Source: a virus
Lineage: Duplodnaviria; Caudoviricetes
DNA length: 64,000 bases
Virus record (IMG/VR): IMGVR_UViG_3300037067_003221
Span: 64,001-128,000 of that record
Direction: 5' to 3' (one strand)
The notes under the pieces were generated by a model that worked only from the letters and a program-made list of their open reading frames with translations, had not been told where the DNA came from and did no database searches. How positions within the stretch are numbered: the first letter of the stretch is position 1; every line of letters begins with the position of its first letter. Of the stretch, positions 10,989-23,073 are shown in pieces. A program made the position numbers and the translations under genes.

Positions 10989-11357
10989 TCATGCTACTCT
11001 CAGTCCCCATACGTCAGTAATCTCATTGACTACGTAATCTTCACCGTAAAGGTCCATAGCCTTTAACAGCCGGTCGGTTACAAAGCAAGCAAGAGTCGCA
11101 GTAAAGACGGACCTACCGCATAAGTCTGCACCCGGCCCGCCCTTGAATTTCACTAAAATCTGGCCGCATTTTTCTTCAACAAACTCGCTACAGTTGGCGA
11201 AGGTAGTAATGTTTTTCATGCCGGGTATTCCGACAACAATCATTCTATCCTCACCGAAACCTAACGCCTCCATCAATTCGGCGGCATCCCCGACGGACTT
11301 CCACCGGGACAAGGCTTCAAAGGCCAGCAGATAATTTTTGAGTTTATTGGTTTCCAT
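10989..11357 (-). CDS. hypothetical protein (probably leaderless)
   Basis: ATG 6 nt after TATAGT. Confidence 0.7.
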   Translation of the reverse strand: METNKLKNYLLAFEALSRWKSVGDAAELMEALGFGEDRMIVVGIPGMKNITTFANCSEFVEEKCGQILVKFKGGPGADLCGRSVFTATLACFVTDRLLKAMDLYGEDYVVNEITDVWGLRVA

Positions 11358-11363
11358 ATATAA

Positions 11364-11391
11364 ACTATACCACAGTTTTGTGTCTTGTCAA
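11364..11391 (-). promoter_or_regulatory. sigma70-type promoter
   Basis: RC TTGACA-16nt(TGTGG)-TATAGT. Confidence 0.85.
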
Positions 11392-12783: not shown

Positions 12784-13008
12784 ATATTCGCCTATCAATC
12801 ATTTTCATGTGCCATATTGAATATCGTCCACATAACTAATTTTTCTTGGGGTGTCATCGGATAAAGAACTTCATCAATTTTGTCTTGCCACTCGATGATC
12901 TTATCTATAAAAATAAAACCAATCACGCTACAAAAACAAACCCAAAATAAAATAGCATTTAGGATACTCAAGCATCTAAACCAAAATCTTTTCATCGTAA
13001 TCTCCTAG

Positions 13009-13082
13009 TGGGCCGGGTAGGAATTGAACCTACGCTAACGCGGATTTTCAGTCCGCTGCTCTACCTGCTGAGCTACCGGCCC
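13009..13082 (-). tRNA. tRNA-Phe(GAA)
   Basis: RC GGGCCGG/CCGGCCC-A, GCGGA-CTGAAAA-TCCGC. Confidence 0.95.
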
Positions 13083-13086
13083 GGAG

Positions 13087-13162
13087 TCGGAATAGAGGGA
13101 ATCGAACCCACGGCCTCATGGTCCCAAACCACGCGCTCTGAACCTAGCTGAGCTATATTCCG
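13087..13162 (-). tRNA. tRNA-Pro(TGG)
   Basis: RC CGGAATA/TATTCCG-A, GTGG-TTTGGGA-CCAT. Confidence 0.93.
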
Positions 13163-13169
13163 ATCTACA

Positions 13170-13721
13170 CTAATCTGCCGTGATAATAGCGGCATACCAA
13201 ACTCCGTTCGTACCCATTGCCATATCGGCACCGAAAAACTTATGCTTGACGCTTGCTACCGACCAGTGGCCGGGAGATTGTCGCCAACACACAAACATTT
13301 CTTTCCCTAATGCGTCCATAGCAAAATCCTTTTGCCACGGCCACGATTCGGCAGCAATCTCCGCAAACTGGAAATTGCCCATCGTCTGGCGCAATTCCTC
13401 GCAACGTGCTTGGAACATCTGGTGGCCTTGTGTGCGTCGGTCGGCCTGATACTTGGCGTGACGGGTTGCCATAGCCATAAGCGCAGGGTGCCGTTCGGAC
13501 AGACATACCTGCGCGCCAGGGAAAATCAACCCTGCGCTAATTAGGCCCTCAGCCGTCAAACCAACAGGCGTGACAATAGGCGACACCGGCCCGATAATAT
13601 CGTAGTCGGGCACTGTGGGTTTCACTGTCATCTTGCAGTATGGGCACGGCGTAATGCCTAAAAATGAAGGGTACGTCTTGCCACACACTCCGCATGTAAC
13701 TTGTTTCTTGAACCAGCCCAT
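13170..13721 (-). CDS. Zn-ribbon + CAP/SCP-like domain protein
   Basis: CGVC..CPYC; ATRHAKYQA..GH, EIAAESW, CWRQSPGHW, GVWYA. Confidence 0.65.
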   Translation of the reverse strand: MGWFKKQVTCGVCGKTYPSFLGITPCPYCKMTVKPTVPDYDIIGPVSPIVTPVGLTAEGLISAGLIFPGAQVCLSERHPALMAMATRHAKYQADRRTQGHQMFQARCEELRQTMGNFQFAEIAAESWPWQKDFAMDALGKEMFVCWRQSPGHWSVASVKHKFFGADMAMGTNGVWYAAIITAD

Positions 13722-14467
13722 TAGATTAAGTTGAACCTTTCCAAAACGTCTTGATACGATTCCTTCCAACGAATAAGCGGCTCGTTCCTAAGCTGCTTGT
13801 ACAAGTCGATGATCTTATCGTCGGTTTGTCCGCGATAGATTCGTTCCAATTCAGCCGGGTCAATGCCCGAACAACGATCTTCAATTCGATTCATTTTTCC
13901 AATCCAAAATGAATCGGAAATTAACGGCTTCAACGTGTGGAATAGTTGAACAACTTTCGACGTATCCAAACACGGTTCACAAGAAATACTTGTCTTGAAA
14001 CCGAGCATAAAGGAATGCGCTAACGAGTTATATCGTTCCTCGAAACAAGGCGCACCTGGTTCCCAGTAGCCAAGAATCCTATCGCTGTACGAACCAATAC
14101 TGAATCGAAACAGCATCTTGTCCTTGAACTTCTCGGTGACTTTGCAAATATCTTTGATGCAGTCAAAGTGAGGTTTGCTAACAACAAGTACCTCATTGCC
14201 AACTTCCAACAACCCCGTCAAGGTGCTAAGGCAGTGGTCCAAGTTCTCCGGCGTAATATCGTGTTGCGTCGGGAACATGACTACGCCATTGTACTTACGA
14301 ATGTTGGGCCGAATATCTACAGTATTCGTCCAAGTATCGAGAGTGGCAACACCACGTTGTACGGCGGTTGCCCTCGCATAGCAATATCGGCAATTATGTT
14401 TGCAGCCCCGCGAACAATTCACGGAACTATCGGACCACTCACGGGTTCCTGTTTTACGTTTAGCCAC
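13721..14467 (-). CDS. Radical SAM protein (DUF5131/gp37-gp68 or SPL-like)
   Basis: TREWSD..NCSRGCKHNCRYCYA (CxxxCxxC), SISCEP. Confidence 0.8.
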   Translation of the reverse strand: MAKRKTGTREWSDSSVNCSRGCKHNCRYCYARATAVQRGVATLDTWTNTVDIRPNIRKYNGVVMFPTQHDITPENLDHCLSTLTGLLEVGNEVLVVSKPHFDCIKDICKVTEKFKDKMLFRFSIGSYSDRILGYWEPGAPCFEERYNSLAHSFMLGFKTSISCEPCLDTSKVVQLFHTLKPLISDSFWIGKMNRIEDRCSGIDPAELERIYRGQTDDKIIDLYKQLRNEPLIRWKESYQDVLERFNLI

Positions 14468-14678
14468 GTTGCACCTTAATAGTTAAAGAAGATCGATTCT
14501 AACATGCTTCAAGTTTGCAGAAGCATCGTCGTTAGCAATGATAACCCAGGTATAATCCTTGATTTCATACGTTGTATAGTTGATCTGAACAAGATCACAT
14601 TCCCCAGGCAAATCCGGGGCTTCAAGTTCCGCTAGTAAAGTACCCTCAGCATAAAACAAAAGTAAAAACTTGTTCATC

Positions 14679-15131
14679 TTATAACCTTAATGGATTGAGT
14701 AGTTTTGCTTTGTGCAACCCATACAGCATTTGCTGGCAGCAAGTTCCAACTGTGTGGGCTAGTGTTTCGTTATCACCTTGATAACTGTCTCGTTTCGGTA
14801 AATTGCGGGGACACATTCGACGTACATAGTTTATTGCGGCATGGGTGGCTTCATGCGTCACTGTTTCTGAATCAAGTTGATTCATACTCAGGAAAATGTA
14901 GCCCATATCCGGCAATAAAATCCATTTACGTCCGTTCCATTGCGTCTTGTTGATTCCCATTTCACAGCCGCCGAAACGCGGTTTGATCTTCGTCAAACAA
15001 TTAGCTTTACGTATGCGGCTGAATCCACGCCACATGGCACTACGAGTTTTGTAAATACGAACTTCGTAGAACGATTCACATTCTGTCGCCATGTAATTGT
15101 TAAGGCCGGGATGTATGCGAAACGTAATCAT
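14679..15131 (-). CDS. hypothetical protein with HExxH motif
   Basis: VTHEATHAA..NETLAH. Confidence 0.6.
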   Translation of the reverse strand: MITFRIHPGLNNYMATECESFYEVRIYKTRSAMWRGFSRIRKANCLTKIKPRFGGCEMGINKTQWNGRKWILLPDMGYIFLSMNQLDSETVTHEATHAAINYVRRMCPRNLPKRDSYQGDNETLAHTVGTCCQQMLYGLHKAKLLNPLRL

Positions 15132-15284
15132 TGGTCCGACCTAATTTGTTTGTTCTCGGCCTCTTTCTCAGCGGCCTTCTCGTTGATTTTTTGCAACCTC
15201 TTGTTGAGTTTTCGCATCCTCTTCGAGTTGCGATAGTCTGGTTTATAGCCGTAGTCTGCGTTTTTCTTGAATGTCCTACCCATG

Positions 15285-15629
15285 CTACCACCTTACTGCA
15301 ACTTTCGGGCCAAACGCCTGTTTAATTAGTTCTTCGTGAGCTACGTGATACATTACTTTGTCAAGTGTAAAGGTAGTCATTGAACCTGTTGCCCATATCG
15401 CGTGTCCCGGTGGCCCGCCACTAAATTGGACTGGTCCAATATCGTCACACGCATCGAGTTGTCCGCAACCATCAAAAATATCCCGTGGATTCGTTCTATT
15501 GAACTTCTGTTCACGGGGGTTCCAAATCAACACAATATCGTCAAGTGCATCGAGGGAAGATAAAAACGCCCATGCCTCACCGACTTTTAGGTTCCGAAAA
15601 CTATGTAGATAAAATTCCAGGTTTTTCAT
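15285..15629 (-). CDS. GGPP-family paralogue 7
   Basis: VQFSGGPPGHAIWATGSMTTFTLD. Confidence 0.8.
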   Translation of the reverse strand: MKNLEFYLHSFRNLKVGEAWAFLSSLDALDDIVLIWNPREQKFNRTNPRDIFDGCGQLDACDDIGPVQFSGGPPGHAIWATGSMTTFTLDKVMYHVAHEELIKQAFGPKVAVRW

Positions 15630-15957
15630 TTTGAATCATCTTGATTACTGTCGTTACTTTCTTTCTTTCGCCAGCGTAATAAGCCGACAAAAATCGATCC
15701 ATCAACAGTTGTGTCAAACTTCCTTCGTACAAGCCGGGTTTACTCGGCGGGCCACCAGCAAATCGCACAGTGATTGAGTCAGCCGAGTCATAATAAATAT
15801 CGGCCATGTCATAAACATCAATTATAGGTGTCCAGAAACCAGCAATGCAAATCATTTGATGCGTTTCATTAAACACATTGCAAAGGGTATCTAGCACTTC
15901 GCCAGCAGTCCAATCCTTAAAAAGGGACACTACTAATTGAAAGTCGATCTTCTTCAT
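15601..15957 (-). CDS. GGPP-family paralogue 6
   Basis: VRFAGGPPSKPGLYEGSLTQLLMD. Confidence 0.8.
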   Translation of the reverse strand: MKKIDFQLVVSLFKDWTAGEVLDTLCNVFNETHQMICIAGFWTPIIDVYDMADIYYDSADSITVRFAGGPPSKPGLYEGSLTQLLMDRFLSAYYAGERKKVTTVIKMIQNEKPGILST

Positions 15958-16315
15958 CGTCTGTTCGCCCTTCCACCATTTCAACGTAATGGCCTTTTGT
16001 TGCCCAGTCGTATAGTACCGAGTCGCAAAGCATTGTCAACAAGGTTCCCGTAAAATGTGTTCTACGTGTCGGCGGGCCACCCCAAAATTCTATCGGGCCA
16101 AAATCCTCCGGGGATAATTGCTCCAAGTGAGTGGCCGTTAGCAATGATCTAACGTCACGCCGGGTGCCTGACTTGACGAACGTAATTGTTGACTGACCTT
16201 TACCAAACTCTTCGCAGAGTAGGTTGACAGTCTCAGCCGCCGTGATACCAGCCACATAATCTCTTATGCGGGCATCAATTGCTGGTGGTTTCGGTGATTT
16301 TATTCGGGGTGTCAT
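15917..16315 (-). CDS. GGPP-family paralogue 5
   Basis: IEFWGGPPTRRTHFTGTLLTMLCD. Confidence 0.8.
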   Translation of the reverse strand: MTPRIKSPKPPAIDARIRDYVAGITAAETVNLLCEEFGKGQSTITFVKSGTRRDVRSLLTATHLEQLSPEDFGPIEFWGGPPTRRTHFTGTLLTMLCDSVLYDWATKGHYVEMVEGRTDDEEDRLSISSVPF

Positions 16316-16619
16316 AAATTGAACGTGTCATTAAACGGTCGATTAACATGGTTATCAAGGTGCCTTTATACACTGCCTCATGTCGGGGCGGGCCACCAAA
16401 AAACTTCACATGAATGTACCTAGCCATCGACCGATGTACAGGTTGCGACAGTAACGCTTCTATTTCATACCATCGACCACCCAGAACCTCGACTGCACAG
16501 GTATTATGTTGGCATCCAATATCATCCAGTCTTTCGGCAACCTCGGCAACCGTTAAGCCGCCAAAGCTGCGATACATCTGATTGATCGAGTAATCCAGCC
16601 AAATGGGGTCAAGTTTCAT
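16275..16619 (-). CDS. GGPP-family paralogue 4
   Basis: VKFFGGPPRHEAVYKGTLITMLID. Confidence 0.8.
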   Translation of the reverse strand: MKLDPIWLDYSINQMYRSFGGLTVAEVAERLDDIGCQHNTCAVEVLGGRWYEIEALLSQPVHRSMARYIHVKFFGGPPRHEAVYKGTLITMLIDRLMTRSIYDTPNKITETTSN

Positions 16620-16993
16620 ACGGTAATCACCCCGCCCAACTTACGCTTCCGCACACCCAGAGCCATACGAGTTTTGGTAAACCCGTCTATCTGAATGCGA
16701 GAGGCAATACAATCCAGCAAATAGCTTATGAGTGTTCCTCGATACCACTTACCGTGGCCGACAGGTCCACCATAAAACGAAACCTTGACTCTTTCGGCAG
16801 GCATGTTCCAAGCCGTGGCCGCATAAATCGAATCGACAGTAGTTGGGATGCTGTACTCGTCGTTAATCAACGTGTCGCCGTGTTGCAACTTGCCAATTAG
16901 TTCGTGTACGCATTCCATATCGAGTGGCTTAAAATGGCCGAGCAGCGATTCAGCTTGTGCCAGAAAATTCTTCTTCATGTTCAAGGCTTTCAA
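16616..16993 (-). CDS. GGPP-family paralogue 3
   Basis: VSFYGGPVGHGKWYRGTLISYLLD. Confidence 0.8.
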   Translation of the reverse strand: MKALNMKKNFLAQAESLLGHFKPLDMECVHELIGKLQHGDTLINDEYSIPTTVDSIYAATAWNMPAERVKVSFYGGPVGHGKWYRGTLISYLLDCIASRIQIDGFTKTRMALGVRKRKLGGVITV

Positions 16994-17324
16994 GGTTCAA
17001 AAATCGGCTATAAATAGCCCAGTTATTATCGCAAGTTGTGTTCATAATCTTGTCACACAACGCAGTCAACAAAGTGCCGGGGAAGAATCCCTTATTGTCG
17101 GGAGGCCCGCCCCAAAACTTTACATAGCAATTCTTCGCGGGGGCATCGGACATGCCATCACATTCGGCCAACAATCGTCCAACTGTGGTTACAATCCCGG
17201 CAAAGACAATCAAATCTTCTCGCCCGCCGAAGGTATAAATCAAGAAGTTCACCGCCCGCCTACAATTTAGGTACGAGAGGCTTTCTTGAAGGCGAACGTG
17301 ATTGCTTTTAGGGCGTATTACCAT
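16950..17324 (-). CDS. GGPP-family paralogue 2 (frame stays open upstream to 17678)
   Basis: VKFWGGPPDNKGFFPGTLLTALCD; internal Met at 17324 overlaps the stop of paralogue 1. Confidence 0.75.
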   Translation of the reverse strand: MVIRPKSNHVRLQESLSYLNCRRAVNFLIYTFGGREDLIVFAGIVTTVGRLLAECDGMSDAPAKNCYVKFWGGPPDNKGFFPGTLLTALCDKIMNTTCDNNWAIYSRFLNLESLEHEEEFSGTS

Positions 17325-17656
17325 AGTGTCAGTTGTGGTGAGACTTGGATATAAGTCGCCAAACTCTCTAAGTTGTGCGTCAGTAAATAGTTCAATACTC
17401 TGTCCTCCACTAGCCGCGCTAGTGTACCCCTGTAGTATTTGCGTCGTGGCGGTGGGCCTCCCCAGAACAAAAATGTTCCCGTTTGGCTGCACGACAGTAT
17501 ATTCACTTCGTCCTGTTTCACCCAATCCTTCACGGATATTCGTCGCCCGTCCATTAGTACGCCCACATACTCGTCGCCCAACGCCCTTATAAGGGCGTAT
17601 GCGGCGGGGGCGGTTAGTGATTGGAGTTTCGTCGTTAGGAAGGGTGATAGTTTCAT
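17318..17656 (-). CDS. GGPP-family paralogue 1
   Basis: FLFWGGPPPRRKYYRGTLARLVED. Confidence 0.8.
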   Translation of the reverse strand: MKLSPFLTTKLQSLTAPAAYALIRALGDEYVGVLMDGRRISVKDWVKQDEVNILSCSQTGTFLFWGGPPPRRKYYRGTLARLVEDRVLNYLLTHNLESLATYIQVSPQLTLW

Positions 17657-17684
17657 GGCTAAGGAATAATCGGCTCATAATTAA

Positions 17685-17712
17685 ACTATACCATACCTTT
17701 CCAGGTTGTCAA
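17685..17712 (-). promoter_or_regulatory. sigma70-type promoter driving the GGPP array
   Basis: RC TTGACA-16nt(TATGG)-TATAGT-6nt-ATG. Confidence 0.85.
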
Positions 17713-17720
17713 GTAGAATT

Positions 17721-19112
17721 TTAATTATTTGGATAAATATAGGTTTCATCGGGTGTAACAGTCCATCCCTCAACAGTGGCATACTTGCTTGTGTAAGGCG
17801 GAATTACAGTGGCACCCGCATTAAACGAGTGACGCAATTCACCCACCCGATAGTGGGACCACTCTCGCCGACGTTCCACGCCGCAATAGCTGCAAACATC
17901 TTGCAACAGCATCCGGTCACGGGCACCACGATTATGACCCCAACGAATCAACGCTTTGGCAACATGCCGTCTTTCCTCCCACAGTAGAAGGATAGCTTGA
18001 TGGGATTTACGCAACCGCGCCCATTTAATCCATTCCGGCTTGTTATAAAGGCCGGGGACATATTTTGCCTTAAACACTTCTAAGGAAGCATCGGCAAATC
18101 CACGGCGGCGACATTCGGTGGCAATCGCCATACCATAATGCACCAACGCTTGTTCGTAGCCAATCCACAACTGGACGGCTTTGTTAGAATCCAAATCCGG
18201 TTCATTTAAGCGTTTCAAAGTGCGTAGTGCCGCAACCCGCATTAACTTCAAATCGCGGTCATGGAAACACTTGGCACACTTCTCGAAATTCATATACGGC
18301 ACAAGCGTCAGGAAATGCCGACGTTTGGGGCGGGATGCCCGCCGTGCTGAACGTGTGGGTCTAGGACTTCGGGCCTGTGACTGTGCGTTTCCTGCTAATG
18401 CCGCCGACAACTCGGACGAAGTTTGCCGGATACCGCCAGAGTTTCCGCCATATAAACTCGCAAACGAACGAGTACGTTCAATATCGCGGCGTGAATAACC
18501 ACTCGACCGTGGCTCGTTGCTTTCAACAGGCGCAGGGACTCCCAATTGTTGATTGCAAAACTCTTCGGCAATTTGCCGAGAATGTCGCTGAATCACTTCA
18601 TCAGGAATAACTCGCTGTGCATCGGGCGTATAGTCAGCCGTGAAAGACATTTCATAAGCATGATAGTCACTCGCGTATCGATCAGAAACTTCGGGGCCGG
18701 GGTCAACCCTCGGCGTTGGCTCTGAACCGGGTAGTCTAAAACTAACAATTGGCGCAGGGTTTACAGGCCGCTGGCTACGGCCAAGCGACTGGAAGGTTTC
18801 TGCATAGCTGCTTGGCACTTCCCGTATCTCCTCCCGGTTAGCATTGTCGTGTTGCGCACGGATATAATCCAATGTAGCCGCACGAATACGGTCCTCTGTG
18901 TCAACAGATATGGGGATGATCCCCAAATAAAAATTAAACCCTGCTCTCTGTGCGGTTTGTTGGACAACCACATAGCCGTTACTGTCGCAGTAGCAACACT
19001 CGTAACGAATCCGTTCACAGGATTCCCATGTAGGGACAACGTCAAGACTTGGCCGACGTAAAAGGTCTCGGTTCATCACCGACCATTCAACTTGAAAATG
19101 ATAGTAACTCAT
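17721..19112 (-). CDS. Protein with low-complexity N-terminus and C-terminal pyrimidine-dimer glycosylase-like (MSMEG_6728/DenV-like) domain
   Basis: TLVPYMNFEKCAKCF..KAVQLWIGYEQALVHYGMAIATECRRRGFAD..PEWI..SHQAILL. Confidence 0.65.
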   Translation of the reverse strand: MSYYHFQVEWSVMNRDLLRRPSLDVVPTWESCERIRYECCYCDSNGYVVVQQTAQRAGFNFYLGIIPISVDTEDRIRAATLDYIRAQHDNANREEIREVPSSYAETFQSLGRSQRPVNPAPIVSFRLPGSEPTPRVDPGPEVSDRYASDYHAYEMSFTADYTPDAQRVIPDEVIQRHSRQIAEEFCNQQLGVPAPVESNEPRSSGYSRRDIERTRSFASLYGGNSGGIRQTSSELSAALAGNAQSQARSPRPTRSARRASRPKRRHFLTLVPYMNFEKCAKCFHDRDLKLMRVAALRTLKRLNEPDLDSNKAVQLWIGYEQALVHYGMAIATECRRRGFADASLEVFKAKYVPGLYNKPEWIKWARLRKSHQAILLLWEERRHVAKALIRWGHNRGARDRMLLQDVCSYCGVERRREWSHYRVGELRHSFNAGATVIPPYTSKYATVEGWTVTPDETYIYPNN

Positions 19113-19406
19113 AGTCTTACCCAGGAAAATAGGGGATATTTTGTATCCCTGTCAAAGGATTGCATCCTATCATACCCTTCACCAAAACGGTGACGTTGAA
19201 TAATGCAAAAGGTTTTTCGATTCCGGCTCATTAGCACTTCAACAGTTGTTATGTCTGTATTAGCATCTGTATGAACCGTTTCCACATATACTCTACCATC
19301 CCGCAACTCCAAAACTTTGAACTCATGTTCAAAGTCGATCAACCGACTGTAGTAAAATGTAATCTGTCGGCCTTCATTGGCGGCAATGGCTTTCAAGCCG
19401 AAAGAA

Positions 19407-19940
19407 TCAACTGTTTTCGTAGTAATCGATTCTTCGTTGTCTGCAATTGTCACAGTTGCATCCCTCTTGCGCGCCATTTACGGCCTCCAATCTGGAAAGA
19501 AATTCTTCAAGGCTTTCGCGGGCAGGCTGCAAATCCATGTTCTTAAACCGCTCAGGCACTTCGTAACCAATCAAGTGTGCCCCATGTGCGGCCAGCAATT
19601 GATGCACCCATTCCTCTTCGATGGTATGAACCTCTCCACAAGCACAGCGGCCAATAAGCGTGTCGCAGTTACCGTGGTTGCGTATCTTCGTCCAATATTT
19701 TGGCATTGCGATACGGCCATTCTCTTCGGGGGCTAGTGCCAATTGGTCAATAGTTGCGCTGTGGGTGCGAAGAAGTCGCTGAACCCACCCATCATTTTCT
19801 TGATGGACACCCCCACATGAGCAGGGTCCAACCAGCATGTCACATTTCGTGCGATACCGGGCCGACCCATCGATAATACGTTTCGGAAAGGCTTTGGGAT
19901 ATTTAACAAAGCCGCTGGATGCTCGTCGTTTTAGTTGCAT
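19407..19940 (-). CDS. Protein with duplicated CDxLxGxCxCGxVH motif
   Basis: CDMLVGPCSCGGVH..WVQRLLRTHSA and CDTLIGRCACGEVH..WVHQLLAAHGA; GAGG RBS. Confidence 0.75.
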   Translation of the reverse strand: MQLKRRASSGFVKYPKAFPKRIIDGSARYRTKCDMLVGPCSCGGVHQENDGWVQRLLRTHSATIDQLALAPEENGRIAMPKYWTKIRNHGNCDTLIGRCACGEVHTIEEEWVHQLLAAHGAHLIGYEVPERFKNMDLQPARESLEEFLSRLEAVNGAQEGCNCDNCRQRRIDYYENS

Positions 19941-19959
19941 AGTTTTGTTCCTCTACACA

Positions 19960-19987
19960 ATCATAGCATACTTTTAGAGGTTGTCAA
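19960..19987 (-). promoter_or_regulatory. sigma70-type promoter
   Basis: RC TTGACA-16nt-TATGAT. Confidence 0.75.
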
Positions 19988-20491
19988 ATGAAAATCAAGA
20001 TTTTTTCAAAATAGGGCCAACTTCGTAGTAACTCCCTTTAGTTTTGGTAATACCGTCAAGGGGTAAAACATCCCCTTCTTTACGCACACACTTAAAGGGA
20101 GTATTCTTTAAGCCGCATCGGCAGCGTAACCCGCCATAAATATGGGTTGCCATTCTCATAAAGTTCGACAATGGTGCCCCGACGGCATTGCTGAATTGTT
20201 CCCACAAAGTCATTTGTAGCGGATTGTCCAGTTGTGGACACAGCATTTCTAGCAGTGCTGCCATTTCCATGCCAGTCAACTCGACAGTATATTTGCCGTT
20301 ACCAAACGCATTGCCATACACTTCCAAAACCAGCACCTTGCCGCCCTCTTCACGGGTGTCTCGGAAAGTGGAGGATTGGAACTTACCGTCTTGACAACTA
20401 TGGTCTAAGACGTAAAACAATTCGGGCTGTTTATCCTTGTCAATTCGGATGACAGTCTTTTCATCGATACGAGTGTCGTGCGACTTGATAA

Positions 20492-20899: not shown

Positions 20900-21463
20900 C
20901 TAACAATTGGTTAATCCGTATAATCCGGCATAATCGAAAAATCTCCAACGACCCATACAATCAATTTCTTTGTCAAAAGCGATATGACGCATATAAGCCG
21001 TAAGGTCGGACCAAGTTTCAAACATCAACTCAGGTGGTAGTTCACCCCTCACCCAATCGGGGACTGCCCACAACCCCTGCTCCATGTGGAACAAGATAGG
21101 TGCCTTTCGCCGGTTGAGGGTTGTTAGTTCCTCATGCGTTCCGGTCGAATAACAATTCATATCCAGATGCACGATAGCAAAGTCGCAAATATCACATAGA
21201 CGCAAATCAATGCAGCGAATCTCTCGCATATCGTGGGCCAGCGTTTCCCAGTCACCAATCTCTTTCAAGTGTTTACGCCGTGCATGATCTTCCAAGTCGG
21301 GGCATTCATAACCGGGGAACATCGGTTTGTGGCACGGGTCCAACGAGATAACGTGCAGCTTATCAAGTTCCTTCTTCATTTCTGTGCGCCACCCAACGCC
21401 AAAATCAACGGCGTAATCAATCGGCCCTGCCAGATAACAACGGTTGTAAAATAATCTATTCAT
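20900..21463 (-). CDS. Nucleoside 2-deoxyribosyltransferase-like / dNMP N-glycosidase
   Basis: YLAGPID..WR..LDP..IDLRLCDICD..STGTHEE. Confidence 0.8.
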   Translation of the reverse strand: MNRLFYNRCYLAGPIDYAVDFGVGWRTEMKKELDKLHVISLDPCHKPMFPGYECPDLEDHARRKHLKEIGDWETLAHDMREIRCIDLRLCDICDFAIVHLDMNCYSTGTHEELTTLNRRKAPILFHMEQGLWAVPDWVRGELPPELMFETWSDLTAYMRHIAFDKEIDCMGRWRFFDYAGLYGLTNC

Positions 21464-22130
21464 TGACGTAGTATCCTTTCAAAATGCTGATTAACCCATT
21501 GACCCCGACACCAATCCTAGAACATCCCGCCGTTATAAACGCTTCCAACTCTTCTTTTGTCTTTATCCCACCAGAGGCTTTGATGCCCGTGTTGGGGAAA
21601 GTCAACAATCCTTGTTTCATATTTTCAACATCTTCGAGACTTGCGCCCCGCGAACCGAAGCCTGTGGAAGTTTTTACAAAATTCCACCCAAGAAACCCGG
21701 CGTACCAACTGAGTTGCTGAATATCTTGTGGACTGAGATAACACGTTTCCAAAATCAACTTGATGATTTCAGTCTTAAAGGCCCGTCTAAATCGACGTAA
21801 TCCGTCAATACATTCATCGCGGTTATCTTGCCACTCTCGTTGATTCAAAACAACGTCCAATTCCTTTGCGCCCGATACGACTGCCAATTGGGCTTCTCCC
21901 TCTTTAGCTCGCCACGGGATATTTCCATGCGGAAACCCAATAACTGAACATAAACGGTCGTGGGGAAGGAACGGAAGTGATCGAACGGCATCTAAATTGC
22001 CACTAGCAACGCACAGGGATGCGCAGTCGTATTTTACGACTAGATCAATACCACGTTTCAAGTCGGTAGCGGTAGCGTTTGGGGCTAACACCGCTAAATC
22101 GATGAATTTCATTACATCATAAAGTTGCAT
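21456..22130 (-). CDS. deoC: Deoxyribose-phosphate aldolase
   Basis: VIGFPHG, GAKELDVV, KLILETCYL, FVKTSTGF, IKASGGIK, GCSRIG. Confidence 0.93.
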   Translation of the reverse strand: MQLYDVMKFIDLAVLAPNATATDLKRGIDLVVKYDCASLCVASGNLDAVRSLPFLPHDRLCSVIGFPHGNIPWRAKEGEAQLAVVSGAKELDVVLNQREWQDNRDECIDGLRRFRRAFKTEIIKLILETCYLSPQDIQQLSWYAGFLGWNFVKTSTGFGSRGASLEDVENMKQGLLTFPNTGIKASGGIKTKEELEAFITAGCSRIGVGVNGLISILKGYYVNE

Positions 22131-23073
22131 GACATTACCTGTAAAAGAATGTATAGTTTCAAGCAGAGGTACATACAATAGGCACTGACCCCTACAAACG
22201 CTACCAACATCAACCCCTCAAGTTTTTCTTCCATTTTAATCCTGGCTGGGGCAAATAGGTAAATCCTCCCTACATTGCGACCCTGAAAATTCCCCAGGTT
22301 CAATTTTCCGACGAACCCGTTTCTTCCGCACTGGTAGCTGTTTTTCCCGGCAATCTTTCTCACATTCAGCAATTGCTTTGTTGAGAGTTTTGAATGGACG
22401 TTTGACAGTTGCAAACGTCCAGGTTTCTCCGTCCCACTTAAATGCAAAGAATCTTGGCGGAAGTTTTATGCCGAAGGCTTCACTTCGCCAGTAGATTCTA
22501 TACTGCTTATCCTTCGTCAGCCAATTCTTCACCTTCTTCGGGTCGTGCTTCCCAAACTTCACCGTGCGGGAAAACTTCAATTGTGGCTTCTGGGATATTC
22601 TTTTCTTCGATGCTTTTCTCACGTTCGATCTCAACTCGTTCGAGTAATTCACCGTTGCTGTCGAAATAGTATCCAACGTACCGATCAATTAGTCCTACAA
22701 GGACTCCGAAGTTTTCAGGCGTAACCTTAGTGATAAACGTGCCTGGATTCGGATAAATATTCAGGTTGCTTGGAAGTCGAACAAAATGTGCTTCTGTCAG
22801 TATCTTAATTGCATTCTGAAAGCCGGTTAATTTTACTTCTGGTTCGTCCATATTATCCCTTCATAATTACACAACGGTCTGGATGTTCCAGCTTTACTGT
22901 ACGCCCAGCGTCATTAGTTCCAAGCACATGAAATACGGGTTCTGCTGCTCTAATGGTTTCAATATGCGAAACGTGCATATAGCGCAACCACATTTCCGAG
23001 CCACGTCGCACAGGATAAGCGACCTTCATTCCCGGCATAATTTCCTGTCCAGAAAAGTCCAATGCTGGCATGA

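What the first reader, a model, noticed from the sequence alone, without database searches (positions are those of the whole stretch)
15285..17712. Tandem array of seven divergent paralogues with an F-x-GGPP-x6-G(T/S)L-x5-D signature
Seen: seven consecutive, overlapping ~110-130 aa ORFs behind one strong promoter. All share (V/I)xF(W/F/Y/S/A)GGP(P/V)..G(T/S)(L/M)..D and a similar N-terminal helix (L/W-T-x-x-E/A..L), yet are otherwise very divergent, with no visible DNA repeats. I recognise no named family. Inference: an old, diversified early-gene expansion, such as a panel of anti-defence or host-takeover binders on one scaffold, or subunits of a hetero-oligomer.
Basis: partly seen in the sequence, partly recalled or inferred. 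Interest (0 to 1): 0.85.

Follow-up and report, generated by a model that had tools for sequence, protein, structure and literature searches.

The report
Fixed eight-paralogue early phage operon
An uncultured 147-kb groundwater phage carries a promoter-driven row of seven, plus one outlying, anciently diverged copies of a small undescribed protein with no recognisable fold; every related phage found keeps the same copies in the same order, so each copy probably has its own job, which is still unknown.

Summary
Seven overlapping genes of 112-132 aa lie on the minus strand (15285-17678) behind a near-consensus sigma-70 promoter. All are homologous, with invariant F, GG, P, G and D. The spacing is GGPP-x7-G(T/S), not x6. 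I add three things.

- An eighth, divergent copy with its own promoter lies at 10989-11357.
- A conserved 51-aa basic gene follows copy 7.
- The frame of copy 2 is open right across copy 1, giving a 242-aa ORF. This holds in all seven phage lineages examined (P about 1e-4 each).

The family has 336 metagenomic cluster representatives. It has no match in Pfam, PHROGs, NCBIfam, PADLOC or GenBank phages, and none by PDB sequence profile. Two confident AlphaFold models (domain pLDDT 87 and 94-97) share one alpha/beta topology and match no solved or predicted fold.

A tree of 51 copies shows that position in the array equals clade. The duplications are therefore old and each copy is retained, unlike a fast-turnover repertoire. 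One lineage fuses copies 5 and 6; another lacks copy 4.

Function is not shown. My best guess (0.4) is a fixed set of non-redundant early binder proteins. The main rival (0.3) is a hetero-oligomer. This scan has found comparable arrays of other families in other phages.

The parts
17685..17712 (-). Sigma-70-type promoter of the array: TTGACA, 16-nt spacer, TG-extended TATAGT
   Evidence: The scan gives an 11 of 12 match. It has the same architecture as 12 other promoters in this genome. Homologous promoters stand before the array in L019, L021, L027, L028 and L030.
16950..17678 (-). Long ORF of 242 aa ('g2L'). Its ATG lies 6 nt after the -10, the leaderless spacing. Its first ~118 codons overlap g1 in the -1 frame, and its C-terminal half is paralogue 2.
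   Evidence: ORF list. The -1 frame across copy 1 has 0 stops, against 5-22 in all other copies. Synonymous-codon resampling gives P(open) of 5e-5 to 2e-4 per lineage. In the AlphaFold model residues 1-120 are disordered and the domain at 125-239 has pLDDT 94-97. Expression of this long form is inferred, not shown.
17318..17656 (-). Paralogue 1 (g1, 112 aa, pI 9.4), orthogroup 1
   Evidence: clade support 100/97.
16950..17324 (-). Paralogue 2, short form (g2, 124 aa). Its ATG overlaps the g1 stop (ATGGTAA).
   Evidence: An in-frame Met at the g1 stop is seen in the four lineages checked.
16616..16978 (-). Paralogue 3 (g3, 120 aa from the ATG; an upstream TTG at 16993 is possible; pI 9.2)
16275..16619 (-). 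Paralogue 4 (g4, 114 aa), with an ATGA overlap with g3
   Evidence: AlphaFold model pLDDT 86.6. Clade support 95/100.
15917..16315 (-). Paralogue 5 (g5, 132 aa)
   Evidence: clade support 100/99. Its orthologue is fused in frame to copy 6 in L021 and L029.
15601..15957 (-). Paralogue 6 (g6, 118 aa from the ATG; an upstream TTG at 15984 is possible)
   Evidence: clade support 100/98.
15285..15629 (-). Paralogue 7 (g7, 114 aa)
   Evidence: clade support 100/99.
15128..15283 (-). Conserved 51-aa, very basic (pI 10.2) ORF. It starts 2 nt after the g7 stop, behind an AAGGTGG ribosome-binding site, and belongs to the same operon.
   Evidence: Orthologues at the same place in L021 (57% identity) and L019 (44%).
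10989..11357 (-). Eighth, divergent paralogue (g8, 122 aa, motif F-K-GGPG), about 4 kb downstream of the array
   Evidence: Family HMM E 3e-7 over the full length. Orthologues lie 5-7 kb downstream of the array in L019, L021, L027 and L028. Clade support 100/99, sister to copy 3.
11364..11391 (-). Promoter of g8 itself: TTGACA-16 nt-TG-extended TATAGT, with the ATG 6 nt after the -10 (leaderless spacing)
   Evidence: The same arrangement stands before the g8 orthologues of L019 and L021.

Best explanation
The array is one early operon, translationally coupled and driven by a host-type promoter. It encodes seven anciently diverged paralogues of a previously undescribed alpha/beta domain of about 110 residues. 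An eighth paralogue is transcribed separately.

Predicted topology is a1-a2-b1-b2-a3-b3-[GGPP hairpin loop]-b4-a4. The invariant F, GG, P, G and D residues hold the scaffold together. The rest of the surface differs between paralogues but is conserved within each orthogroup.

Most likely the products are small cytoplasmic binding proteins made at the start of infection. Each would be directed at its own conserved partner in the host cell or in the phage's own machinery. That makes a fixed, non-redundant repertoire on one scaffold rather than a fast-evolving arms-race panel.

**Shown:** anatomy, homology, orthology, collinearity and the predicted fold.
**Inferred:** early timing (from the promoter), binding as the activity, and separate targets.
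For: - **Homology.** All copies are homologous.
- **Operon anatomy.** A near-consensus promoter sits directly upstream and the genes overlap by 4-41 nt.
- **Retention.** All eight positions form separate clades in seven phage lineages. The tree needs 8 label changes, the minimum, against a shuffled mean of 36.5. Best BLAST hits follow position. Every copy is therefore retained and non-redundant. More distant arrays keep the order 1-2-3 and 5-6.
- **Rate.** Orthologue identity is 25-51%, against 32-72% for flanking syntenic genes, so there is no hypervariability.
- **No catalytic signature.** The only invariant polar residue is one Asp. The other invariants are Gly, Pro and Phe at a beta-hairpin. 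There is no match to any enzyme or other family.
- **Size and architecture.** The proteins are small, single-domain and never found fused to another domain type.
- **Precedent (established knowledge).** Multigene families of small binders on one scaffold, each with its own target and 1:1 orthologues between related viruses, are typical of large DNA viruses. Poxvirus Bcl-2-like proteins are one example.
Against: - No target or activity is known, and the host is unknown.
- A loop that is conserved in all eight paralogues and probably exposed (GGPP) would also fit a common partner or a subunit interface.
- Copies 5 and 6 are fused in frame in one lineage, seen in three independent assemblies (L021, L022, L029). 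This hints at physical proximity.
- Strict retention of nearly the whole set fits a complex at least as well.
- One invariant Asp and a Gly-rich loop could be a ligand site.
Confidence: 0.4

Rival explanations
1. The paralogues are subunits of one hetero-oligomeric assembly. It would have arisen by duplication of a self-associating ancestor, as in Sm/Lsm rings, proteasome rings or CCT. The conserved beta-hairpin/GGPP face would form the contacts between subunits, and coupled translation would set the stoichiometry.
For: - The same 7+1 set occurs in the six phage lineages whose contig spans the whole array, with position equal to clade; the seventh, L008, is cut at the fifth copy.
- The reading frames overlap tightly.
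- There is a natural in-frame fusion of neighbouring copies 5 and 6.
- Net charges are mixed: g1 and g3 have pI 9.2-9.4, the others 4.8-6.4.
- One motif is conserved in all copies.
- Solitary family members in other phages could represent the homo-oligomeric ancestor state.
Against: - L008 lacks copy 4: its fourth gene groups with copy 5.
- More distant lineages appear to have fewer copies.
- g8 is transcribed on its own.
- The whole region is collinear between these phages, so conserved order is not specific to the array.
- Hetero-oligomers of paralogues are rare among known phage early proteins (general knowledge).
Confidence: 0.3
2. The domain is a small enzyme or small-molecule/nucleotide-binding module. 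The Gly-rich GGPP loop and the invariant Asp would form the ligand site, and the paralogues would differ in substrate. This would fit the nucleotide- and DNA-modification genes around the array.
For: - The invariant GG-P loop and Asp.
- Neighbours include a Pyr_excise-like glycosylase, DeoC, a deoxyribosyltransferase-like gene, methyltransferases and, in relatives, a phosphoribosyltransferase and an IMPDH-like gene.
Against: - Only one invariant polar residue.
- No sequence or fold match to any enzyme or ligand-binding family.
- The invariant Gly, Pro and Phe are explained by a tight beta-hairpin.
- The adjacent genes differ between lineages, apart from the upstream glycosylase-like gene.
Confidence: 0.12
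3. The proteins are helix-turn-helix-like nucleic-acid-binding regulators of phage or host transcription.
For: The language-model look-alikes of g5 among named clusters are all HTH families (HTH_3, CII, HTH_Tnp_1) at 0.86-0.88. The conserved L-T-x-x-E-A-x-x-L helix resembles helix 2 of HTH domains (my own knowledge, a lead only).
Against: - Scores under 0.9 with few shared features are at chance level by the tool's own calibration.
- No HTH profile hit.
- Six of the eight copies are acidic.
- The predicted region after helix 2 is a beta-hairpin, not a recognition helix.
Confidence: 0.05

Closest known systems
Tandem arrays of small diverged paralogues in large and jumbo phages, and multigene families of large DNA viruses (poxvirus Bcl-2-like proteins, ASFV MGF families)
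   Same: Same-strand, back-to-back small genes of one orphan family in the early region of a large phage. They share a scaffold with diverged surfaces, and their function is unknown or is host interaction. This scan has met several such arrays of other families in other phages.
   Different: - The copy number is small and fixed (7+1). Each position is an old orthogroup kept in order in all relatives, rather than 25-48 copies that vary between strains.
- The family is unrelated in sequence to those arrays.
- The head of the array carries a conserved second reading frame.
Rings of paralogous subunits (Sm/Lsm heteroheptamers, proteasome alpha/beta rings, CCT)
   Same: A set of seven to eight anciently diverged paralogues. 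One motif is conserved in all of them, and all are retained together. This is a 'works like' analogy for the hetero-oligomer rival.
   Different: No sequence or fold similarity was found. The predicted topology a-a-b-b-a-b-b-a is not the Sm fold. No assembly has been shown.
Overprinted (dual-frame) phage genes and two-product starts, for example phiX174 overlapping genes, lambda Rz/Rz1 and T7 gene 10A/10B (my own knowledge)
   Same: About 340 nt encode a conserved protein (g1) while a second frame is kept free of stops. The second-frame peptide is predicted to be disordered, as is usual for overprinted sequence.
   Different: - The second frame runs on into the next paralogue, so the product would be a long isoform of g2.
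- Its sequence is barely conserved beyond what g1 imposes: 21.5% identity against 19.0% simulated.
- The position of its start codon relative to the promoter differs between lineages.
- Expression is untested.
Pfam DUF7710 (PF24819) and PHROG 9460 ('methyltransferase')
   Same: These are the only profile hits that touch the GGPP region: E 0.07 on g5 and E 0.0019 on g6.
   Different: Each hits a single paralogue, over 30-48 residues, far below the cut-off (13.7 against 27 bits). The DUF7710 model gives hits at that level in 7 of 14 control genomes. I treat both as chance.

Membership tests
Phage tandem small-paralogue array (descriptive kind) | Several adjacent same-strand genes that are demonstrably homologous to one another | tested here: met
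   Seven adjacent minus-strand genes, each scoring E 1e-23 to 1e-30 against the family profile.
Phage tandem small-paralogue array (descriptive kind) | Copy number and content vary between related phages (a fast-turnover repertoire) | tested here: not met
   7+1 copies with position equal to clade in seven lineages. The only loss seen is copy 4 in L008.
Pfam DUF7710 (PF24819) | Score at or above the curated gathering cut-off of 27 bits | tested here: not met
   Best score 13.5-13.7 bits on one paralogue only. The same model reaches that level in 7 of 14 control genomes.
Any Pfam / PHROG / NCBIfam / PADLOC family | A significant profile match for the window's copies or for family members | tested here: not met
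   No family hit more than one of 131 members at E <= 0.1 in Pfam. Nothing significant in PHROGs, NCBIfam or PADLOC.
Sm/Lsm-like ring subunits | Sm fold (N-terminal helix plus a five-stranded bent sheet) and the Sm1/Sm2 motifs | tested here: inconclusive
   No Sm protein appears among the fold-search rows for either model. The predicted topology differs.
Death-domain superfamily (DD/CARD/DED) | Six-helix bundle fold with a structural match well above background | tested here: inconclusive
   These are the top rows for both models, but only at Z 4.0 (rmsd 2.8, 59 residues aligned) and Z 4.8 (rmsd 4.5, 85 aligned). That is below the usual background of Z 7-8. The models also contain a four-stranded sheet.
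Helix-turn-helix regulators | A match to an HTH profile or fold | tested here: inconclusive
   No profile hit. The only support is language-model look-alikes at 0.86-0.88, which is chance level.
Hetero-oligomer of paralogues | Physical association of the subunits | not testable with these tools
   It needs co-purification or a solved complex. See Tried and rejected for the one prediction run.

The most novel reading that the evidence does not exclude
The eight paralogues assemble into one defined hetero-oligomeric machine built from a fold not seen before. This would be a virus-encoded counterpart of the cellular rings of paralogous subunits. The conserved second reading frame at the head of the operon would supply a long, tail-bearing isoform of subunit 2, which would set or regulate the assembly.
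Probability: 0.25. Interest if true: 0.85.

Novelty: new variant of a known kind. Interest (0 to 1): 0.6.

Why it matters
- **An unnamed family.** It has at least 336 clusters at 50% identity and is restricted, as far as searched, to one clade of large uncultured phages. It has no name, no solved relative and apparently no known fold. Two high-confidence models make it a good target for structure determination.
- **A different kind of array.** Unlike most phage paralogue arrays, this one is a fixed set of old orthogroups. That points to eight distinct conserved functions or to one multi-subunit assembly. Either would show how a whole clade of 120-150-kb phages (with Ro60, RtcB, Thg1 and amidoligases) starts infection.
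- **A clean case of frame conservation.** The open second frame across copy 1 is conserved and statistically strong. It allows study of how overlapping coding and leaderless starts are used to make two products from one transcript.

Tried and rejected
- **Complex prediction.** g5 (alignment A4) was run with g6 (A5), chosen because their orthologues are fused in L021. The result was no verdict (runs 0.53, 0.01, 0.01). It is not evidence either way.
- **RNA evidence.** No listed run is on record as RNA. One wastewater library labelled 'metagenomic RNA-Seq' holds two 150-nt contigs on g5/g6 and g4. It may be DNA, and contigs cannot show expression.
- **DNA-pattern scans for FWGGPP-x7-G(T/S)L.** IMG/VR gave nothing. 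JGI metagenome contigs gave 8 hits, and none carries the family.
- **The search for related loci.** It failed with g4 alone and with the broad alignments. It worked only with a six-sequence alignment of copy 5. The same pattern found nothing in GTDB species genomes.
- **GenBank phages.** blastn of 13000-20000 hit only the tRNAs. tblastn with g2, g4 and g5 found nothing.
- **Fused forms.** A search for forms over 250 aa found none, which is weak evidence. The 200-260-aa 'long forms' among the representatives are the copy-2 ORF read across copy 1. They are not fusions to another domain.
- **Fold searches with both models.** Foldseek on PDB and BFVD, VIA-align against 48,161 PDB chains and the ESM Atlas gave a best Z of 4.0 and 4.8 and TM of at most 0.42. 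The PDB sequence profile gave nothing below E 0.079.
- **Weak profile hits.** DUF7710 and PHROG 9460 were rejected as chance.
- **Non-coding or gene-calling artefact.** Rejected: every copy has conserved orthologues.
Full report
**What is there.** The window is bases 64001-128000 of a 147,030-bp IMG/VR virus record that CheckV rates complete. The best-matching public run is a groundwater metagenome, which may be the source sample. A landfill run holds near-identical contigs, and two wetland runs hold relatives mostly 90-99% identical.

The seven ORFs lie on the minus strand between 15285 and 17678, as described. They share only 18-24% pairwise identity but align over their whole length. F, GG, P, G and D are invariant, and a conserved L-T/S-x-x-E/A-A-x-x-L helix lies near the N-terminus. 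Each copy scores E 1e-23 to 1e-30 against a profile of 131 family members, among them the seven copies themselves.

The spacing between GGPP and G(T/S)(L/M) is seven residues, not six. At DNA level only the ~11 nt that encode GGPP recur, so the duplications are old.

**Operon anatomy.** A near-consensus promoter (TTGACA, 16 nt, TG-extended TATAGT) lies at 17712-17685. Successive genes overlap by 4-41 nt.

A 51-aa, very basic ORF (15128-15283) follows g7 after 1 nt, behind a good ribosome-binding site. It is conserved at the same place in related phages. No terminator follows. The next genes run on without gaps: a 150-aa HExxH protein, a 64-aa ORF, a radical-SAM protein and a 199-aa protein.

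The profile also finds an eighth, divergent copy at 10989-11357 with the motif F-K-GGPG. It has a promoter of its own.

**The family.** A profile of the seven copies finds 336 cluster representatives at E <= 1e-3, and 93 at <= 1e-10, among 1.84 billion proteins. Those with a source label are 'hypothetical protein' from metagenomes. The searches that found nothing significant are these:

| search | result |
|---|---|
| Pfam, on the window's copies and on 131 members | no family hit more than one member |
| PHROGs, NCBIfam, PADLOC | nothing significant |
| PDB sequences | nothing below E 0.079 |
| GenBank phages | no match |
| GTDB species genomes, by pattern | no match |
| fused forms over 250 aa | none |

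**Fold.** AlphaFold2 models were made for g4 (131-row alignment, pLDDT 86.6, pTM 0.76) and for the 242-aa g2 ORF (domain pLDDT 94-97). Both give the same topology: two helices, a beta-hairpin, a short helix, a second hairpin carrying GGPP in its loop, then a long helix carrying the invariant Asp.

Neither model matches anything. Foldseek against PDB and BFVD gave no E <= 0.001. VIA-align against 48,161 chains gave a best Z of 4.0 and 4.8, to death-domain bundles, which is below the stated background. The ESM Atlas gave TM of at most 0.42.

**Related phages.** Contigs from six other lineages carry the same array: L008, L019 (also on a 118.8-kb contig), L021/L022/L029, L027, L028 and L030. Every lineage whose contig reaches far enough has seven tandem domains plus an eighth copy 5-7 kb downstream. 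The array follows a Pyr_excise-like gene inside a collinear region (BCS1-like AAA, M28 peptidase, DeoC, methyltransferases).

An IQ-TREE of the 51 copies places each array position in its own clade.

| position | support (UFBoot/SH-aLRT) |
|---|---|
| 1 | 100/97 |
| 2 | unresolved, next to 4 |
| 3 | 85/51 |
| 4 | 95/100 |
| 5 | 100/99 |
| 6 | 100/98 |
| 7 | 100/99 |
| 8 | 100/99 |

The positional label needs 8 changes on the tree, the minimum possible, against 36.5 when shuffled. Orthologue identity (25-51%) is close to that of flanking genes (32-72%).

There are exceptions. L008 lacks copy 4. In L021, L022 and L029 copies 5 and 6 are one 216-aa in-frame fusion. More distant lineages (L023, L024, L020) keep the orders 1-2-3 and 5-6 but appear to have fewer copies. 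L025 and L026 have a solitary 158-aa member next to an amidoligase.

**The head of the array.** The frame of copy 2 stays open across the whole of copy 1. It has 0, 0, 0, 1, 0, 0 and 0 stops in the seven lineages, against 5-22 in every other copy. Resampling synonymous codons of g1 gives P(open) of 5e-5 to 2e-4 per lineage. At least a dozen further cluster representatives of 160-260 aa are this long ORF.

The second-frame peptide is predicted to be disordered. It is hardly more conserved than g1 imposes: 21.5% identity against 19.0 +/- 0.8% simulated. Selection therefore seems to act on openness rather than on sequence.

In this genome 13 promoters place an ATG 4-6 nt after the -10, which suggests leaderless mRNAs. 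The array's promoter does this with the long ORF's ATG (17678). The g1 ATG lies 22 nt further on and has no Shine-Dalgarno sequence. In five relatives it is the g1 ATG that sits 7-8 nt after the -10, and the long ORF's ATG sits 1-4 nt after it, probably upstream of the transcription start. A Met codon in the g2 frame at the g1 stop is present in the four lineages checked.

How the second frame is entered is therefore unexplained, and its translation is inferred only.

**Interpretation.** Three things are shown: a real, old, fixed set of eight paralogues; an undescribed family; and an unmatched predicted fold. Function is not shown.

I favour a fixed repertoire of non-redundant early binder proteins on one scaffold (0.4). 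The proteins are small, single-domain and promoter-proximal, lack catalytic signatures, and are each conserved. An arms-race anti-defence panel is less likely because the set does not vary.

The hetero-oligomer reading (0.3) is supported by retention of the whole set, the coupling, the 5-6 fusion and mixed charges. It is weakened by the loss of copy 4 in L008 and by smaller arrays elsewhere. An enzyme or ligand-binding role (0.12) and an HTH-like role (0.05) remain possible.

**Relation to earlier notes.** Two other first-stage notes describe this same stretch. One flags the double reading frame, which I tested and confirm as a conserved feature. The scan has reported comparable arrays of unrelated families in other phages. 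This one differs in being a small, fixed, collinear set.

Noticed in passing
whole genome G000 (window 481-38637 and beyond); e.g. window 17678, 11357, 20821: Thirteen promoters of the form TTGACA-N15-17-(TG)GTATA(A/G)T are followed after 4-6 nt by ATG, which suggests leaderless mRNAs. All are on the minus strand, and 12 open ORFs of 59-321 aa. This looks like a systematic leaderless early-gene design.
   Followed up: partly
window 15128-15283 (-): A conserved 51-aa Lys/Arg-rich ORF (pI 10.2) lies directly after the seventh paralogue. Orthologues stand at the same place in L019 and L021 (44-57% identity). No family match.
   Followed up: partly
window 17721-19112 (-): A 463-aa protein matches Pyr_excise (T4 endonuclease V-like glycosylase, E 4e-6) only at residues 274-341. 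It is conserved directly upstream of the array in related phages as a 380-413-aa gene. In L019 and L021 an extra 130-aa gene lies in between, and its 3' end contains the array promoter.
   Followed up: partly
L021 9354-10001, L022 7326-7973, L029 8995-9642: In one lineage, seen in three independent assemblies, paralogues 5 and 6 are a single 216-aa two-domain protein.
   Followed up: partly
L025 123-599 and L026 2441-2917: A solitary 158-aa family member with a long acidic tail lies next to an Amidoligase_2 gene (L025) or near a GGACT gene (L026). It may represent a single-copy state of the family in another phage group.
   Followed up: no
window 14679-15131, 13721-14467, 13170-13769 (-): Downstream genes of the operon are a 150-aa HExxH protein with no Pfam hit, a 248-aa protein with a CxxxCxxC radical-SAM start (E 0.003), and a 199-aa protein conserved at 54-57% identity in relatives. 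Three tRNA genes follow: Pro and Phe adjacent, Met a little further on.
   Followed up: no
window 20900-21463 and 21456-22178 (-): A 187-aa protein weakly resembles nucleoside 2-deoxyribosyltransferase and is 72% identical to its counterpart in L021. It overlaps a DeoC-family aldolase gene. Relatives add phosphoribosyltransferase and IMPDH-like genes here. This looks like a nucleotide-salvage or DNA-modification module.
   Followed up: no
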